A stretch of 64,000 bases of DNA from an uncultured Chloroflexia bacterium (GCA_963766735.1 CAVYBU010000003.1:32001-96000), one strand, 5' to 3'; shown: positions 12,512 through 27,437, counted from the first letter of the stretch. Notes: a model not told the origin generated them from the letters alone. Program-made: numbers and translations.

Positions 12512-12868
12512 GTGACCGGGATCTGGTACGTCGTCGGGTTTGCCCTCGTCGGAGTCCTGTTCGTGTTCGGCGTGATCGGGCTCGCATGGCTGATCACCCA
12601 TCGCACCCGCGGCGACGTCCACAAGGGCTACCCGTACGAGTCGGGCATCGACACCTACGGCGACACCCACGCCCGGTTCGGCATCTCGTTCTACATCTAC
12701 GCCCTGATGTTCGTCGCCTTCGACATCGAGGTGATCTTCATCTTCCTGTGGGCCCTGGTGTTCCAGGATCTCCTGCTGGGCGGGTTCATCACCATGTTGA
12801 TCTTCGTCGGCATCCTGATGCTCGGCCTCGCGTACGCGTGGCGCAAGGGGGTGTTGTCGTGGCGCTGA
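12512..12868 (+). CDS. nuoA: NADH-quinone oxidoreductase subunit A
   Basis: [38 protein letters not shown] before GTG. Confidence 0.93.
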
Positions 12869-13608
12869 CCCCGGATGGTCCCGGCGAGCCCGTCATCCCC
12901 GACGCCGCCGCGGCGGACGTGCCCTCCGCCGCGGATGCCAGGTCGGCGCTCGTCGAAGCCTCACCCAGGGACCTGACCCAGCCCATCGTCGTCCCAAACA
13001 CCCTCTGGACCTCGATCCGGTCGGACGCGTACCGCTCCGAGGCGCCGGCATTCACGCACCTGCGCGAGCTTGAGGGGTCGGACCTCGTTCTCTCCGACAC
13101 CGCCCGCTGGGGCCAGCTGGAGGTGATCCCCACCAAGGCCGACCTCGTCGTGGACCTGATCCGGATGAACAGTCTCTGGCCGCTGCTCTCGGGCCTCGCC
13201 TGCTGCGCGATCGAGATGATGTCCGCGGCCACGTCCAAGAACGACATGGACCGCTGGGGCATGTTCCCGTTCCGTGCCTCTCCGCGCCAGGCCGACGTCC
13301 TGATCGTCGCCGGCACCCTGACCACCAAGATGGCCGGCCCGCTCATCCGGCTCTGGGAGCAGATGCCGGAGCCCAAGTGGTGCGTCGCGATGGGCGACTG
13401 CACCTGCTCCGGGGGCCGCTACAAGCGCAGCTACTCCACCATCGAGGGCATCGACCGTGTCATGCCCGTGGACGTCTACGTGCCGGGCTGTCCGCCGCGG
13501 CCGGAAGGCCTGATCTACGGGATGATGAAGCTCGGCCAGCTGGTCAAGGAACAGCGCGGCCACTGGCCCGAGCGCAAGATCGGCCCGAACGTGCCGACGG
13601 ACGTCTAG
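12859..13608 (+). CDS. nuoB: NADH-quinone oxidoreductase subunit B
   Basis: [37 protein letters not shown] (N2 ligands intact). Confidence 0.95.
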
Positions 13609-13611
13609 GCG

Positions 13612-24419: not shown

Positions 24420-25963
24420 TCGACCTCTCCGGGCTGCACCTGGTGACCCTGGTCACCTTCCTGCCCCTGCTGGGCGCTCTCGTGATCGCGTTCACGCCGA
24501 CCAGCCGGCCGAACGTCGCGCGCTACACCGCGCTCGGTTTCGCCCTCCTCGCGTGGGTCGCCTCGCTCGCGCTGCTGGTCGCCTTCGTGGCCGGTGCGGA
24601 TGGCTTCCAGTTCGTCGACCAGGTCGACTGGATCCCGATGTTCGGCATCCAGTACAAGGTGGGCGTGGACGGGCTCTCGCTCGTGCTCGTGGTCCTCACC
24701 ACGACCCTCACCTGGATCAGCATCCTCGCCTCCTTCGGCCCGATCCAGAACCGGGTGAAGGAGTACATGATCTCGTTCCTCGTCCTCGAGGTGGGGATGA
24801 CGGGCGTGTTCGTTGCGATGGACCTGTTCCTGTTCTACATCTTCTGGGAGCTGGTCCTCGTCCCGATGTACCTGATCATCGGGATCTGGGGCGGCAAGAA
24901 CCGCATCTACGCCACCATCAAGTTCGTCCTCTACACCCTGGTCGGGTCGCTGCTGATGCTGGTCGCGATCCTGGCCGCCGCCTTCACCTACCAGACCACC
25001 AACGGGTGGGCAGGGGCGTTCGACGTCGGGAAGCTCACCGAGTTCGCGGCCGCCGGCAACTTCGACGGCACCTTCGGCTTCTTCGCGTTCGCGGCATTCG
25101 CGCTCGCCTTTGCGATCAAGGTCCCGATGTTCCCGTTCCACACCTGGCTCCCGGACGCCCACGTGGAGGCGCCCACGGCGGGCTCCGTCATCCTGGCCGG
25201 CGTCCTGCTGAAGCTGGGTGGCTACGGGTTCATCCGGTTCGCGATCCCGCTGTTCCCGGAGGCGGCGCAGACCTGGGCCCCGCTGATCATCGTGATGAGC
25301 CTGATCGCGATCATCTACGGCGCGATCGTCGCCCTGGTCCAGCCAGACCTCAAGAAGCTGGTCGCCTATTCGTCGGTCAGCCACATGGGCTTCGTGACCC
25401 TGGGCATCTTCGTGTTCCAGGAACAGGGCATGCAGGGGGCCATCCTCCAGATGGTCAACCACGGGCTCATCACCGGCGCACTCTTCCTCCTCGTGGGCGT
25501 GATCTACGAGCGCACCCACGATCGGACGATCGCCAAGATGGGCGGGCTGGGGTCGAAGACCCCTGTGTACGCCGCCGCGTTCGGGTTCTTCGTCTTCGCC
25601 TCGGTCGGCCTGCCGGGCCTGTCCGGGTTCGTGGGCGAGTTCCTGGTCCTGGTCGGAACGTTCGCCTTCAACCCCGCCGCCGCCGCGATCGCGACCTTCG
25701 TGATGATCCTTGCCGCCGGGTACCTGCTCTGGATGTTCCAGCGAGTGGCCTTCGGCGAGCTGTCGGGGTTCCTCAAGGGTCTCGGCGACCACCTCACCGA
25801 CCTCCGCCCTGTCGAGGCACTCACGCTTGTGCCGCTGGGCGCGCTGGTCGTGGTGTTCGGCCTCTTCCCGGGCCTGCTCCTGGACCTGATCGCCGGTTCC
25901 GTGACGAACGCACTCGCCGCGGTGCAACAGGCTGCACCCATCGCCCTCGGCCTGTGGCGGTAG
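24416..25963 (+). CDS. nuoM: NADH-quinone oxidoreductase subunit M
   Basis: FYIFWELVLVPMY, KVPMFPFHTWLPDAHVEAPT, KKLVAYSSVSHMG; ATGA overlap. Confidence 0.95.
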   Translation: MIDLSGLHLVTLVTFLPLLGALVIAFTPTSRPNVARYTALGFALLAWVASLALLVAFVAGADGFQFVDQVDWIPMFGIQYKVGVDGLSLVLVVLTTTLTWISILASFGPIQNRVKEYMISFLVLEVGMTGVFVAMDLFLFYIFWELVLVPMYLIIGIWGGKNRIYATIKFVLYTLVGSLLMLVAILAAAFTYQTTNGWAGAFDVGKLTEFAAAGNFDGTFGFFAFAAFALAFAIKVPMFPFHTWLPDAHVEAPTAGSVILAGVLLKLGGYGFIRFAIPLFPEAAQTWAPLIIVMSLIAIIYGAIVALVQPDLKKLVAYSSVSHMGFVTLGIFVFQEQGMQGAILQMVNHGLITGALFLLVGVIYERTHDRTIAKMGGLGSKTPVYAAAFGFFVFASVGLPGLSGFVGEFLVLVGTFAFNPAAAAIATFVMILAAGYLLWMFQRVAFGELSGFLKGLGDHLTDLRPVEALTLVPLGALVVVFGLFPGLLLDLIAGSVTNALAAVQQAAPIALGLWR

Positions 25964-25973
25964 GAGGACACCC

Positions 25974-27437
25974 GTGATCTTCTCCGACGCCGTCACGCTG
26001 GCGCCGTTCATCGCCGCGGTGCTGCTGGCAGCCGCGATCATCGTCGTCGACTTCATCGTGCCCGGCCGCAAGGTCCCGGTGCTCGCGGTGACGTTTGTCG
26101 GCCTTGCGCTCGTCGCCGGGCTGATCGTCCTCACGGGCCAGACCGGATCCACGGCCTTCAACGGCTCCTACGTGGTGGACCCGCTGACCACGTTCCTGGA
26201 CGTGCTGTTCGTGGCGATCGTCGCGCTGAGCGTCGCGTTCGCGCCGGACTACATGGAGGAGCGCGGCCTGCCGGTGGCCGAGTTCAGCGCGATCCTCGTG
26301 TTCGCGATGTCGGGCGCCATGCTCCTTGCCGGGTCGGCGGACCTGCTGCTGCTGTTCCTGGGCCTGGAGCTCATGGTCCTGCCCGGGTACATCCTGGCCG
26401 GCTACCACAAGTCGGACGGCTTCTCGACCGAGGGCGCGATCAAGTACTTCCTGCTCGGGTCCTTCTCCTCCGCCATCTTCCTGTTCGGGCTCGCGTTCGT
26501 GTGGGGCATGACCGGCACCACCCGGATCGATGGCGTGGCGCAATCCCTGGCCGCGCTCGTGAGCGGCACCGCGGCGCTCTCGCCGGGCCTGGCCCTTGGC
26601 CTCGCGTTCATGACCACGGGCGTGGCATTCAAGATCGCCGCCGTCCCGTTCCACTACTGGACGCCGGATGCGTACCAGGGCTCCCCGACCCCGGTCACCG
26701 GCTATCTGTCGGTCGGGCCGAAGATCGGGGCGTTCGCACTGATCATCCGGCTCTTCGGCGAAGCGCTCGGTCCCCTCGCGCTGGACTGGAACATCGTGAT
26801 CATGGTGCTGGCGGCCCTGACGATGACCCTTGGCAACCTGGTCGCGCTGACCCAGGACAACGTCAAGCGGATGCTCGCGTACTCCTCGATCGCACACACC
26901 GGCTACATGCTGGTCGGGTTCGCGGCGTTCGCGGCCGGTGAGATCCAGGGCCTCGAGGGGCTGCTCTTCTACAGCGCCGCGTACGCGTTCATGAACCTGG
27001 GCGCATTCGCCGTGATCGCGGCCCTCCAGAAGCGCCGTGCGGTGACCAGCAACCTGTCCACCTTCGCGGGCCTCATCCGCCGTGAGCCGGTCCTGGCGTT
27101 GATGATGACCCTGTTCATGCTGTCCCTCACGGGCATCCCGCCCACGGCCGGGTTCTTCGGCAAGTTCTACGTGATCCTCTCGGCGGTCCAGGCCGGTGGG
27201 TGGCTGACCGCCCTCGCGATCCTTGCGGTGCTCAACGCGGCGGTGGCGGCGTTCTACTACCTGCGCGTCGTGGTCTACATGTTCATGCGGGAACCGGAGG
27301 GCGAGATCCCGGTGATGCCGCACGGGCGCCTCGTCTGGGCCGGACTGGTGGTGGCAACGGTGTTGACGGTGGCGCTGGGCCTGTTCCCCAACGCCCTGCT
27401 GGACATCGTCGAGGGCGCGGCCGCGGCGATCGGCTAG
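25974..27437 (+). CDS. nuoN: NADH-quinone oxidoreductase subunit N
   Basis: EGAIKYFLLG, FKIAAVPFHYWTPDAYQGSPTP, KRMLAYSSIAHTGY; AGGAGG SD. Confidence 0.95.
   Translation: MIFSDAVTLAPFIAAVLLAAAIIVVDFIVPGRKVPVLAVTFVGLALVAGLIVLTGQTGSTAFNGSYVVDPLTTFLDVLFVAIVALSVAFAPDYMEERGLPVAEFSAILVFAMSGAMLLAGSADLLLLFLGLELMVLPGYILAGYHKSDGFSTEGAIKYFLLGSFSSAIFLFGLAFVWGMTGTTRIDGVAQSLAALVSGTAALSPGLALGLAFMTTGVAFKIAAVPFHYWTPDAYQGSPTPVTGYLSVGPKIGAFALIIRLFGEALGPLALDWNIVIMVLAALTMTLGNLVALTQDNVKRMLAYSSIAHTGYMLVGFAAFAAGEIQGLEGLLFYSAAYAFMNLGAFAVIAALQKRRAVTSNLSTFAGLIRREPVLALMMTLFMLSLTGIPPTAGFFGKFYVILSAVQAGGWLTALAILAVLNAAVAAFYYLRVVVYMFMREPEGEIPVMPHGRLVWAGLVVATVLTVALGLFPNALLDIVEGAAAAIG

What the first reader, a model, noticed from the sequence alone, without database searches (positions are those of the whole stretch)
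12512..27437. Complex I variant with a replaced input arm: candidate NADPH:quinone proton pump
Seen: order nuoA-B-C-D-H-[I(N)/E remnant]-[F-like]-[G(N)/GltD/I(C)]-J-K-L-M-N, with TGATG or GTGA coupling through the insert. There is no nuoEFG between D and H. The Q-module and membrane arm motifs are intact. The only convincingly intact nucleotide site is the GltD/NfnB-like domain (GGGFSAMD..VYRR). Known: YRR after the second Rossmann strand is typical of NADP(H)-using GltD/NfnB proteins, and NuoE/F/G-GltD trios make up soluble Stn/NfnABC-type transhydrogenases. Inference: such a module was grafted onto an 11-subunit complex I, giving energy-conserving NADPH oxidation or pmf-driven NADP+ reduction. 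I do not know of a characterised example, but novelty needs a literature and database check.
Basis: partly seen in the sequence, partly recalled or inferred. Interest (0 to 1): 0.92.

Follow-up and report, generated by a model that had tools for sequence, protein, structure and literature searches.

The report
Complex I with NADPH module inside NuoI
This soil bacterium's only respiratory complex I has its small iron-sulfur subunit NuoI cut in two, with a flavoprotein module borrowed from soluble NADPH/NADH transhydrogenases encoded in the gap, so the proton pump probably runs on NADPH, a design I could not find described in print.

Summary
Window 12440-27437 (+) is one tightly coupled operon: nuoA-B-C-D-H, three insert genes, then nuoJ-K-L-M-N.

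The insert genes:
- IE: the N half of NuoI fused to the N-terminal helices of a NuoE/BfuC protein.
- F': the core of a NuoF/BfuB protein.
- G': a 2Fe-2S, GltD and ferredoxin-like protein of the StnC/NfnA type, ending in the C half of NuoI.

This is the only complex I in the genome. The layout is kept across the class Limnocylindria (Chloroflexota). Ktedonobacterales-like genomes carry it in dispersed form.

All Fe-S ligands and the FAD and NADPH motifs of G' are invariant. The parts that define an electron-bifurcating Bfu core are deleted or mutated. F' evolves about twice as fast as G' but is still under purifying selection.

Best reading (0.45): a proton-pumping NADPH:quinone oxidoreductase in which F' is mainly a scaffold. 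Main rival (0.30): both NADH and NADPH are donors. Nothing here is biochemically tested.

My paper searches found only predicted relatives (Nuo-Bfu, mbx-like with GltD). This scan has noted the same design before on other genomes. I rate it a new variant of a known kind.

The parts
10879..12225 (+). Methyltransf_28 (NDUFAF7/MidA-type) methyltransferase gene directly upstream of nuoA. It may be a complex I maturation factor; its link to the operon is inferred from position only.
   Evidence: Pfam PF02636, E 2.6e-45. By its N-terminal sequence, a similar ORF appears to lie just downstream of the G' gene in locus L015; that ORF was not scanned against Pfam.
12440..12868 (+). nuoA. The start is ATG 12440 or GTG 12512.
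   Evidence: Pfam Oxidored_q4, E 2e-30; DNA read.
12859..13608 (+). nuoB (N2 cluster subunit), with an N-terminal extension of about 80 residues. The likely start is GTG 12859, behind AAGGGGG.
   Evidence: Pfam Oxidored_q6, E 6.5e-27. The CC...C...C cysteine pattern is visible in the translation. Junction read.
13612..14160 (+). nuoC
   Evidence: Pfam Complex1_30kDa, E 3e-40.
14163..15398 (+). nuoD of the variant type: the Pfam match is broken at profile positions of about 172-197.
   Evidence: Pfam Complex1_49kDa, E 5e-81, in 2 stretches. The same broken pattern occurs in 60 of 61 class genomes; the 61st (G448) shows a single contig-end fragment.
15463..16803 (+). nuoH, with an extra hydrophobic stretch of about 75 residues (residues about 314-387).
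   Evidence: Pfam NADHdh, E 1e-104; 298 profile positions are spread over 375 residues. tblastn to L014 breaks at residues 313/388.
16811..17476 (+). IE fusion protein. It joins the N half of NuoI (first CxxCxxCxxxCP motif; residues about 1-85; nt 16811-17065) to the N-terminal helical domain of NuoE/BfuC (residues about 117-186; nt 17159-17368). It has no thioredoxin-like 2Fe-2S domain.
   Evidence: C56, C59, C62 and C66 are invariant in 8 of 8 family members.
17476..18834 (+). F': the core of a NuoF/BfuB-like protein (flavin/NAD(H) fold plus a 4Fe-4S region). It lacks the N-terminal 2Fe-2S domain and the C-terminal 2x[4Fe-4S] domain of BfuB. The second Cys of its 4Fe-4S motif is replaced by Thr.
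   Evidence: Pfam Complex1_51K and NADH_4Fe-4S only. Aligns to residues 160-574 of the 630-aa HydB 8a6t_B and to residues 112-527 of the 584-aa StnB 8oh5_B. Motifs read.
18834..21491 (+). G' fusion protein, in order:
- 2Fe-2S domain (nt about 18993-19235)
- GltD-like two-cluster region (about 19272-19451)
- FAD/NADPH domain (about 19587-20540; YRR at 20076-20084)
- CxxCxC...C motif (20733-20768)
- 2x[4Fe-4S] ferredoxin-like domain (about 20937-21110)
- C half of NuoI (about 21126-21320)
- variable tail
21488..22024 (+). nuoJ. Its GTG start overlaps the G' stop (GTGA).
   Evidence: Pfam Oxidored_q3; junction read.
22024..22356 (+). nuoK
   Evidence: Pfam Oxidored_q2.
22369..24419 (+). nuoL. In this assembly the reading frame shifts after a G run near 22535: one base is missing compared with two relatives.
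   Evidence: Pfam Proton_antipo_N and Proton_antipo_M; frames and blastn to L021 and L024.
24416..25963 (+). nuoM
   Evidence: Pfam Proton_antipo_M.
25974..27437 (+). nuoN
   Evidence: Pfam Proton_antipo_M.

Best explanation
One membrane enzyme: a complex I whose usual NADH-input module (NuoEFG) is replaced by a stripped-down Stn/NfnABC (Bfu)-type module encoded inside a split nuoI.

**Shown by sequence**
- The two halves of NuoI lie on two different proteins, IE and G'. Each half carries one invariant four-Cys motif.
- G' keeps a complete GltD-type FAD/NADPH site and every Fe-S motif of the StnC/NfnA chain, up to the point where StnC continues into its FdhF-like domain. There G' continues into the C half of NuoI.
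- The BfuC 2Fe-2S domain, the BfuB N-terminal domain and the BfuB C-terminal ferredoxin domain are absent.

**Inferred mechanism**
- The two NuoI halves re-form the N6a/N6b two-cluster fold on NuoB/NuoD and so bolt the module to the Q module.
- NADPH reduces the FAD of G'. Electrons then pass through the two GltD clusters and the NuoG-like clusters to N6a/N6b, to N2 in NuoB, and on to the quinone. Proton pumping by NuoH, A, J, K, L, M and N follows as in any complex I.
- F', held by the NuoE-like helices of IE, is mainly a structural adaptor, perhaps with a side-branch cluster. It is not the main hydride entry.
- NADH would reach the chain through PntAB, which is present.
For: 1. **Split NuoI.** IE residues 9-73 match NuoI residues 17-81, and G' residues 768-819 match NuoI residues 93-144 of the same solved chain, 8qby_I. 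The two ranges complement each other without overlap. The Cys motifs are invariant in both halves: 8 of 8 sequences for IE and 13 of 13 for G'.
2. **Only complex I.** tblastn with all 13 proteins finds no second nuoA/B/C/D/H/J/K/L/M/N set in the 94%-complete genome. Without the two halves the complex would have no NuoI.
3. **Origin of G'.** It aligns over residues 56-788 with 9bov_A, StnC (8oh5_C) and NfnA (9n5u_A). In the StnC structure NADPH and FAD sit in this GltD-like domain, and electrons run from there through the Fe-S chain (PMC10482914, sections 7 and 8).
4. **NADPH site.** The FAD GxGxxG, the GGG..D..RTS.R stretch and Y416-R417-R418 are invariant in 13 of 13 sequences, down to 44% identity.
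5. **F' has lost features named for Tsi NfnB** (PMC12018979, section 7), mapped through:
 - Asp-195 is Tyr in 10 of 11 family members and Met in 1.
 - The AFM motif is replaced and hypervariable.
 - Arg-303 is Gln here.
 - The second Cys of the B1 cluster is lost in the Limnocylindria members.
6. **Rates.** F' has dN 0.163 against 0.071 for G' (28 pairs). Against the sister family it is the least conserved subunit, at 49% identity versus 53-75% for the other twelve (60-75% for the non-membrane subunits).
7. **NuoE remnant.** The 2Fe-2S domain is degenerate in two lineages and deleted here.
8. **PntB.** It is present in this genome and in 59 of 61 class genomes. The two genomes without it (G441, G449) are the only two with an additional canonical NuoD. 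Both belong to one genus, so this counts as one event and is only a hint.
9. **Conservation and continuity**.
Against: - No biochemistry exists, and I could model no assembly.
- F' is not clearly dead. The glycine-rich loop, the two glutamates that Tsi NfnB uses to select NADH, GGPTG, and three conserved Cys of its cluster are kept. Arg-303 is kept in most relatives.
- dN/dS of 0.25 shows purifying selection on F'.
- Members outside Limnocylindria keep all four cluster Cys in F'.
- Routing NADH through PntAB would cost pmf compared with a normal complex I.
- An NDH-2 was not excluded. The only test, Pfam NDH2_C, missed E. coli in its own control.
- YRR as a mark of NADPH preference rests on homology, not on a test.
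Confidence: 0.45

Rival explanations
1. Dual-donor complex I. Both flavin sites work: NADH at the FMN of F' and NADPH at the FAD of G' feed the same Fe-S chain to quinone. One pump then serves both pyridine nucleotide pools. The peripheral arm could also exchange hydride between the pools.
For: - F' keeps the glycine-rich loop, GEET and GGPTG, and a conserved three-Cys cluster motif with a His one or two residues after the last Cys.
- It is full length in all genomes examined and under purifying selection (dN/dS 0.25).
- In Stn the same chain links the FAD to the FMN (PMC10482914, section 8).
- This is the only complex I in the genome, so NADH needs some route to the quinone pool.
Against: - Asp-195 next to the flavin is replaced family-wide, and the following motif is hypervariable.
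- F' evolves 2.3 times faster than G' in dN. By recall, NuoF is normally among the best conserved subunits.
- An uncoupled NADPH:NAD+ exchange would dissipate the separation of the two pools (inference).
- PntB is nearly universal in the class.
Confidence: 0.3
2. The enzyme runs mainly in reverse. Proton-motive force drives electrons from quinol up to NADP+, supplying NADPH for biosynthesis.
For: By recall, complex I is reversible. The module ends in an NADP(H) site.
Against: - It is the only complex I of organisms that otherwise look like aerobic heterotrophs, so some forward entry into the chain is needed (lifestyle recalled, not tested).
- PntAB already offers pmf-driven NADPH synthesis in 59 of 61 class genomes.
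Confidence: 0.1
3. The three insert genes encode a separate soluble Stn/Nfn-like enzyme that only shares the operon, and the membrane complex works without them.
For: - In Ktedonobacterales-like genomes the cassette nuoB'-IE-F'-G' lies apart from nuoA-C-D-H.
- The complex prediction gave no verdict.
Against: - Complex I would then have no NuoI at all, because both halves exist only as fusions.
- The dispersed cassettes always carry a nuoB, and their partner loci lack nuoB and nuoI, so the pieces complement each other.
- The tetramer-forming FdhF-like domain of StnC and the ferredoxin-binding parts are missing (PMC10482914, section 8).
Confidence: 0.05

Closest known systems
StnABC / NfnABC (Nfn-Bfu) electron-bifurcating transhydrogenases (PDB 8oh5, 9n5u, 9bov; PMC10482914, PMC12018979)
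   Same: - Same three protein types in the same gene order.
- G' aligns over residues 56-788 with StnC/NfnA, including the 2Fe-2S domain, the GltD-like FAD/NADPH domain and the NuoG-like clusters.
- F' is closest to HydB/NfnB/StnB.
- IE residues 117-186 match the N-terminal part of BfuC.
   Different: - It is membrane-linked through NuoI halves fused to both ends of the module.
[quoted passage not shown]
- Missing: the BfuC 2Fe-2S domain, and the N-terminal domain and C-terminal 2x[4Fe-4S] domain of BfuB.
- Asp-195 and the AFM motif are changed.
- Ferredoxin-linked bifurcation is therefore very unlikely.
Nuo-Bfu, a predicted 14-subunit complex I with BfuABC in place of NuoEFG (Geobacter, Planctomycetes, Nitrospirae; PMC9304861, passages read)
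   Same: A complex I-type operon with a Bfu-type input module in the middle. It is likewise a prediction from gene clusters and not characterised.
   Different: - There the full BfuBC core is kept and NADH plus ferredoxin confurcation is proposed; no GltD domain or split NuoI is mentioned in the passages I read.
- Here the core is stripped, a GltD/NADPH domain is present, and the module sits inside nuoI.
- That survey selected BfuB proteins by a C-terminal ferredoxin domain, which F' lacks, so it would have missed this family.
- I could not see its supplementary tables.
Canonical complex I (NuoA-N; T. thermophilus 2fug/4hea, E. coli 7awt and others)
   Same: - The eleven core subunits are present.
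- NuoB has the cysteine pattern for cluster N2.
- The chain logic is the same: flavin, then NuoG-like clusters, then N6a/N6b, then N2, then quinone.
   Different: - There is no NuoE, NuoF or NuoG as such.
- NuoI is split across two fusion proteins.
- A second flavin site (FAD/NADPH) is present.
- NuoD is of a divergent type.
mbx-like complexes of Thermotoga and proteobacteria with a GltD-related subunit (PMC4758237, passage read)
   Same: A GltD-type NAD(P)H flavoprotein is attached to a complex I-related membrane complex at the NuoI position.
   Different: There the GltD-like protein is said to substitute for NuoI in an Mrp-type, non-quinone complex that reduces NAD(P)+. Here NuoI is kept as two halves, within a full quinone-type complex I.

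Membership tests
Respiratory complex I (NDH-1/Nuo) | Eleven core subunits NuoA, B, C, D, H, I, J, K, L, M, N encoded together | tested here: met
   Pfam finds all of them. NuoI is present only as two halves on IE and G'.
Respiratory complex I (NDH-1/Nuo) | NuoB cysteines for cluster N2, and NuoI's eight cysteines for N6a/N6b | tested here: met
   - NuoB shows the CC, C and C pattern in the translation (assignment of these as N2 ligands is recalled).
- IE C56/C59/C62/C66 are invariant in 8 of 8 sequences.
- G' C778/C781/C784/C788 are invariant in 13 of 13 sequences.
Respiratory complex I (NDH-1/Nuo) | NuoEFG NADH-input module (14-subunit form) | tested here: not met
   - There is no NuoE, F or G gene in the operon.
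- F' scores higher against HydB/NfnB than against NuoF.
- The only other NuoE-F-like genes lie beside a formamidase gene on contig C8, and a lone one lies on C21.
Respiratory complex I (NDH-1/Nuo) | Quinone reduction coupled to proton pumping | not testable with these tools
   Needs membranes or purified enzyme. Key Lys and Glu residues of NuoL, M and N were not checked one by one.
Bfu family (BfuABC electron-bifurcating enzymes) | Conserved BfuBC core: FMN, B1 4Fe-4S, C1 2Fe-2S, and a C-terminal ferredoxin domain on BfuB (PMC9304861, PMC12018979) | tested here: not met
   - The C1 domain is absent: Pfam matches profile positions 2-63 of 145 only.
- F' has no Fer4 domain and ends where the ferredoxin domain of BfuB would begin.
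- One B1 ligand is lost in Limnocylindria.
Bfu family (BfuABC electron-bifurcating enzymes) | Signature residues around the flavin (Asp-195, AFM 201-203, Phe-281, GGPSG; Tsi NfnB numbering) | tested here: not met
   Asp-195 is Tyr, AFM is VQI, Phe-281 is Tyr, and GGPSG reads GGPTG. Homologous, but not a functional member.
StnC/NfnA-type subunit | 2Fe-2S domain, inserted GltD-like FAD/NADPH domain and NuoG-like clusters | tested here: met
   One alignment over residues 56-788 with 9bov_A (E 7e-157) and 8oh5_C.
StnC/NfnA-type subunit | C-terminal FdhF-like domain, needed for the Stn tetramer (PMC10482914, section 8) | tested here: not met
   G' is 885 aa against 1172 for StnC. From residue about 766 it is the C half of NuoI.
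GltD-like NAD(P)H oxidoreductase domain | Two N-terminal Fe-S motifs, FAD GxGxxG, and a second Rossmann GGG..D with YRR | tested here: met
   Pfam Fer4_20 and Pyr_redox_2. All motif columns are invariant in 13 of 13 sequences. Actual NADPH preference is not testable here.
Nuo-Bfu (predicted, PMC9304861) | Intact BfuABC replacing NuoEFG in a 14-gene nuo cluster | tested here: not met
   The module is truncated, carries GltD, and lies between nuoH and nuoJ inside nuoI.

The most novel reading that the evidence does not exclude
The class Limnocylindria respires through an NADPH-specific proton-pumping complex I that works in series with PntAB.

- NADH is first lifted to the more reducing NADPH pool at the cost of one proton.
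- NADPH then drives full proton pumping with low-potential menaquinone.
- This would be a 'redox gear' that solves the known shortfall of NADH:menaquinone energy for four protons.

The split NuoI would then be the first natural example of a complex I core subunit used as a two-piece docking adaptor for a foreign input module. The Ktedonobacterales-like cassettes (nuoB'-IE-F'-G') would be exchangeable heads for a shared membrane arm.
Probability: 0.2. Interest if true: 0.9.

Novelty: new variant of a known kind. Interest (0 to 1): 0.75.

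Why it matters
**Bioenergetics.** No proton-pumping complex I is known to me (recall), or was found in my searches, that takes electrons from NADPH through its own flavin site. If this one does, NADPH would become a respiratory fuel. That would change how energy budgets are modelled for Limnocylindria, a class that recurs across many soil, sediment and freshwater metagenome assemblies.

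**Enzyme evolution.** The split NuoI shows how modular redox enzymes can evolve. A soluble bifurcating transhydrogenase was stripped of its bifurcating parts and wired covalently into a core Fe-S subunit. This gives a natural template for plugging new electron inputs into complex I.

**Open question.** With menaquinone as acceptor, NADH may not supply enough energy for four protons per two electrons (raised in PMC9304861). This enzyme would make that question directly testable.

Tried and rejected
- **Complex prediction.** The N half of NuoI (IE residues 1-100) was folded with G' residues 690-850. The result was no verdict (score 0.16, mark 0.32) and counts neither way.
- **NDH-2.** A search with Pfam NDH2_C found nothing in the genome. 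The model rang in only 3 of 14 control genomes and missed E. coli, so it says little. NDH-2 remains unchecked.
- **Paper searches.** None of these described the design:
  - Limnocylindria + complex I
  - complex I + NuoEFG + GltD
  - complex I / input module / glutamate synthase / nuoI
  - Ellin6529 + NADH dehydrogenase
  - Limnocylindr / NADH / nuo
  - StnABC + complex I + quinone
  - Chloroflexi + nuoEFG + NADPH + complex I
  - Nuo-Bfu
  - respiratory complex I / NADPH-dependent / GltD-like / menaquinone
  - PMC5736913 and PMC8097209 were read in passages and do not bear on it.
- **Limits of the literature check.** Supplementary tables were closed. Those of PMC9304861, which list the Bfu gene clusters, might hold such clusters.
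- **Cultured host.** Ten clusters of the dispersed IE form carried only metagenome-assembled names (Ktedonobacterales, Chloroflexota) or 'ferredoxin'.
- **Joints in the read layout.** Those in table 5 have short sides (20-34 letters) at 90% likeness. I take them as cross-matches from other organisms, not as rearrangements.
- **RNA evidence.** Contigs from an RNA library cover the operon. This does not prove transcription, because DNA carry-over was not controlled.
- **Rejected idea: a canonical NuoEFG elsewhere docks on this complex.** The NuoE-F fusion on C8 sits with a formamidase gene and a truncated NuoG/FdsA-like gene. The usual NuoG docking partner, NuoI, is already fused to G'.

Full report
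**1. What is in the window**

Positions 12440-27437 on the + strand form one operon. The DNA has about 67-72% G+C across the operon.

Pfam assigns the genes as follows:
- NuoA, NuoB, NuoC, NuoD and NuoH.
- Three unusual ORFs.
- NuoJ, NuoK and three antiporter-like subunits (L, M, N).

The insert genes are translationally coupled:
- IE stop and F' start overlap as TGATG.
- F' stop and G' start overlap as TGATG.
- G' stop and nuoJ start overlap as GTGA.

A Methyltransf_28 gene of the NDUFAF7/MidA family lies directly upstream at 10879-12225.

**2. The three insert proteins**

*IE (16811-17476, 221 aa).*
- Residues 9-73 match residues 17-81 of a solved 163-residue NuoI (8qby_I) and the same part of many NDUFS8/TYKY chains.
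- Residues 117-186 match the N-terminal helices of BfuC/NuoE-type chains (9bov_C residues 19-88; 9n5u_C; 8oh5_A).
- Pfam sees only profile positions 2-63 of 145 of the thioredoxin-like 2Fe-2S family. The cluster-binding fold is therefore missing.

*F' (17476-18834, 452 aa).*
- It has the Complex1_51K and NADH_4Fe-4S domains and nothing else.
- Its best solved relatives are HydB (8a6t_B, 335 bits), 9bov_B (332), NfnB (9n5u_B, 323) and StnB (8oh5_B, 322). Complex I NuoF chains score about 236 bits.
- The alignments cover residues 160-574 of the 630-aa HydB and residues 112-527 of the 584-aa StnB.
- The N-terminal domain and the C-terminal 2x[4Fe-4S] domain of BfuB are therefore absent.

*G' (18834-21491, 885 aa).*
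- It aligns in one piece over residues 56-788 with 9bov_A (E 7e-157), StnC (8oh5_C, E 5e-140) and NfnA (9n5u_A).
- The aligned part comprises a 2Fe-2S domain, an inserted GltD-like FAD/NADPH domain and NuoG-like clusters.
- Where StnC continues into its FdhF-like domain, G' continues into a segment whose best single-stretch matches are the C halves of NuoI chains (residues 93-144 of 8qby_I, E 2e-12).
- The two NuoI pieces, 17-81 and 93-144, complement each other without overlap.

In effect nuoI has been opened in the loop between its two cluster motifs, and a Stn/Nfn-type three-gene module now sits in the gap, fused in frame at both ends.

**3. Is it real, and how common is it?**

*In this genome.* tblastn with all 13 proteins finds no second set of nuoA/B/C/D/H/J/K/L/M/N in the 94%-complete genome. 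This is the organism's only complex I. The other NuoF-like genes are two:
- a NuoE-F fusion next to a truncated NuoG/FdsA-like gene and a formamidase gene on contig C8;
- a lone copy on contig C21.

*In close relatives.*
- G' is found at 83-91% identity in 22 of 24 same-genus genomes. The two misses are 72% and 68% complete.
- It is found at 74-77% identity in 16 of 16 genomes of a sister family with genomes of about 1.1 Mb.

*Across the phylum (401 genomes).* The IE fusion, with both halves matched, occurs in:
- 23 of 23, 4 of 4, 16 of 16 and 2 of 2 genomes of the four families of the class that were sampled;
- at least 17 genomes of four other families.

*In public records.*
- Source names for close homologues are Candidatus Limnocylindrales or Chloroflexota.
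- All 80 loci kept from the species-level genome collection match at least 189 of the 221 IE residues at 67-96% identity. They are mostly Chloroflexota or Limnocylindrales metagenome-assembled genomes.

*Single complex I across the class (61 genomes at least 90% complete).* Sixty have the same divergent NuoD type (the 61st, G448, shows only a contig-end fragment). Only 2 of 61 (G441, G449) also have a canonical full-length NuoD.

*Read support.* Short contigs from three DNA runs and one RNA-library run, from four different studies, bridge the junctions nuoH|IE, IE|F', F'|G' and G'|nuoJ. Each junction is bridged by contigs from two or three of the runs.

Misassembly is excluded.

**4. Other forms of the same system**

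- In the class family f3 the order is as here. About 1.6 kb of extra DNA lies between G' and nuoJ.
- In family f4 (G353), nuoB-nuoD-IE-F'-G' lies 12 kb from nuoK-L-M-N.
- In three other Chloroflexota families a compact cassette nuoB'-IE-F'-G' lies at one locus.
  - Proteins of this form carry Ktedonobacterales names where named.
  - In the two of these families whose second locus I fetched (G396, G169), nuoA-C-D-H without nuoB or nuoI lies at another locus.
  - These genomes also hold a canonical complex I.
- In one genome (G250) a variant operon, nuoA-B-C-D-H-IE-F'-G', is followed on the same contig by a canonical nuoA-B-C-D...F-G operon.

The pieces at separate loci complement each other. 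This argues that the cassette belongs to a complex I-type enzyme and is not a free soluble enzyme.

**5. State of the cofactor sites**

*G' (13 sequences, down to 44% identity).* These are invariant:
- the four Cys of the 2Fe-2S domain;
- the His/Cys and Cys motifs of the GltD-like region;
- the FAD GxGxxG;
- the second Rossmann GGG..D..RTS.R and Y416-R417-R418;
- a CxxCxC...C motif;
- both CxxCxxCxxxC(P) motifs of the ferredoxin-like domain;
- the NuoI-type motif C778/C781/C784/C788-P.

*IE.* C56, C59, C62 and C66-P are invariant in 8 of 8 sequences.

*The NuoE-like 2Fe-2S domain.* It is still present in the sister family and in family f3 but has lost its second Cys pair. In this genus it is deleted.

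*F'.* I mapped it to Tsi NfnB through the alignment and used the residues named in section 7 of PMC12018979.
- Kept: the glycine-rich loop, Glu-285/Glu-286 and GGPSG (here GGPTG).
- Asp-195, which sits by the flavin, is Tyr in 10 of 11 family members and Met in 1.
- The AFM motif and the following residues are replaced and differ between members.
- Phe-281 is Tyr.
- Arg-303, which binds the NADH phosphate, is Gln here but Arg or Lys in 8 of 11.
- The second Cys of the 4Fe-4S motif is Thr, Ser or Ala in all six Limnocylindria members that were aligned. It is kept in the five members from the other families.
- A paralogue in the same genome (on C8) keeps the canonical motif.

*Evolutionary rates.*
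- Across 28 pairs of eight same-genus genomes, F' has a median dN of 0.163 and dN/dS of 0.25. G' has 0.071 and 0.17.
- Against the sister family, F' is 49% identical. NuoD is 75%, G' 74%, NuoB 72% and IE 71%.

F' is therefore constrained, but much less than its neighbours.

**6. How it most likely works**

*Shown:* the anatomy above.

*Known from the solved relatives:*
- In StnABC, NADPH and FAD sit in the GltD-like domain, and a linear Fe-S path runs from there to the FMN of StnB. The FAD does not bifurcate (PMC10482914, abstract and sections 7-8).
- In NfnABC, bifurcation needs FMN plus the B1 and C1 clusters. Ferredoxin binds at the C-terminal domains of NfnB and NfnC (PMC12018979, abstract and section 7).

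*Inference:*
- C1, the ferredoxin domain and the N-terminal domain are gone here, so bifurcation to ferredoxin is lost.
- What remains is the mid-potential chain, now ending covalently in NuoI.
- NADPH reduces FAD. Electrons then pass through the GltD and NuoG-like clusters to N6a/N6b, which are rebuilt from the two halves, then to N2 and to quinone, with proton pumping as in any complex I.
- F' probably serves as the structural bridge between the NuoE-like helices of IE and G'.
- An active NAD(H) site on an unbifurcated chain would short-circuit the NADPH and NADH pools. This would explain why its flavin pocket has drifted.

*PntB.*
- It is present in this genome and in 59 of 61 class genomes, including the three 1.1-Mb genomes sampled.
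- The two genomes without it are the two that also have a canonical NuoD.
- They belong to one genus and are 91% complete, so this is one observation, not a statistic.
- It fits a route in which NADH goes to NADPH through PntAB and then into this enzyme.

*A possible rationale (inference).* The NADPH pool is kept more reduced than the NADH pool (recalled). PMC9304861 notes that NADH:menaquinone may not yield enough energy for four protons.

*Odds:*

| Reading | Odds |
|---|---|
| NADPH as the main donor, with F' non-catalytic | 0.45 |
| Both NADH and NADPH as donors | 0.30 |
| Mainly reverse operation | 0.10 |
| A separate soluble enzyme | 0.05 |
| Something else | the rest |

**7. Comparison with what is known**

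- The module is homologous to Stn/Nfn-Bfu enzymes but fails the defining tests of the Bfu family: the core clusters, the ferredoxin domain and the signature residues.
- The operon meets the core definition of complex I but has no NuoEFG.
- Two related ideas are in print as predictions:
  - Nuo-Bfu, with an intact BfuABC in place of NuoEFG (PMC9304861, passages);
  - mbx-like complexes in which a GltD-related protein replaces NuoI (PMC4758237, passage).
- Neither describes a split NuoI, a GltD-bearing module on a quinone-type complex I, or Chloroflexota.
- Nine further searches found nothing closer.
- Supplementary tables were closed and could hold relevant gene clusters.
- Spero et al. (PMC4453560, passage) noted that many Chloroflexi genomes have 13 of 14 complex I genes and lack NuoG. 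They did not describe this design.
- Source records name the proteins 'FAD-dependent oxidoreductase', 'formate dehydrogenase major subunit', 'ferredoxin' or 'hypothetical protein'.

**8. Earlier notes of this scan**

I formed the reading above first and then looked up earlier notes. Sixteen findings in at least 15 other genomes describe the same design and reach the same reading. They are not independent evidence. One of them names 9bov as Caldicellulosiruptor saccharolyticus NfnABC, which I did not check.

**9. Verdict**

- Novelty: a new variant of a known kind, namely complex I with an alternative input module.
- Interest: 0.75. The design is unexpected, is conserved across a whole class, and can be tested directly.

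Noticed in passing
window 22369-22560 (nuoL 5' end): The N terminus of nuoL (start ATG 22369) is in a different frame from the rest of the gene. One base is missing after a G run near 22535 compared with two relatives (L021 at 96% identity, and L024). This is either a homopolymer error of the assembly or a real frameshift.
   Followed up: partly
window 10879-12225: A Methyltransf_28 (NDUFAF7/MidA-type) methyltransferase gene lies directly upstream of nuoA. By its N-terminal sequence, a similar ORF seems to follow G' in locus L015 (15331-16419). In mitochondria this family methylates the NuoD homologue (recalled), so it may be a maturation factor of this complex.
   Followed up: partly
window 15463-16803 (nuoH residues about 314-387): NuoH carries an extra hydrophobic stretch of about 75 residues, probably two more membrane helices. 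The stretch is absent from the family f3 homologue: tblastn breaks at residues 313/388.
   Followed up: no
window 12859-13100 (nuoB N terminus): NuoB has an N-terminal extension of about 80 residues, rich in Ala, Pro and Asp, ahead of the Oxidored_q6 domain (the Pfam match starts at residue 112 of the 246-aa translation submitted, about residue 115 counted from the 12859 start).
   Followed up: no
G000 contig C8, locus L105 5867-10251 (- strand): Three genes lie in a row: a formamidase gene; a NuoE-NuoF fusion gene (639 aa, canonical flavin-site motif); and a 428-aa NuoG/FdsA-like gene that ends right after its Molybdop_Fe4S4 domain. This may be the remnant or a variant of an NAD-linked formate dehydrogenase coupled to formamide use.
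   Followed up: partly
G441 and G449 (class genomes): The only two class genomes with an additional canonical NuoD are also the only two of 61 without a PntB match. Both belong to one genus and are 91% complete.
   Followed up: partly
loci L016, L017, L018 (cassettes) and L101, L102: In Ktedonobacterales-like genomes the system is split between two loci. One carries nuoB'-IE-F'-G'. The other carries nuoA-C-D-H, with no nuoJ-N nearby. The membrane arm may be shared with the canonical complex I of the same genome.
   Followed up: partly
locus L014 14913-16550: In family f3 about 1.6 kb lies between G' and nuoJ with no match to any window protein. It may hold an extra gene.
   Followed up: no
window 21320-21488 (G' C-terminal tail): G' ends in a variable, low-complexity tail with Gly-Asn and Gly-His repeats. 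Its length differs between close relatives, and it is absent outside the family.
   Followed up: no
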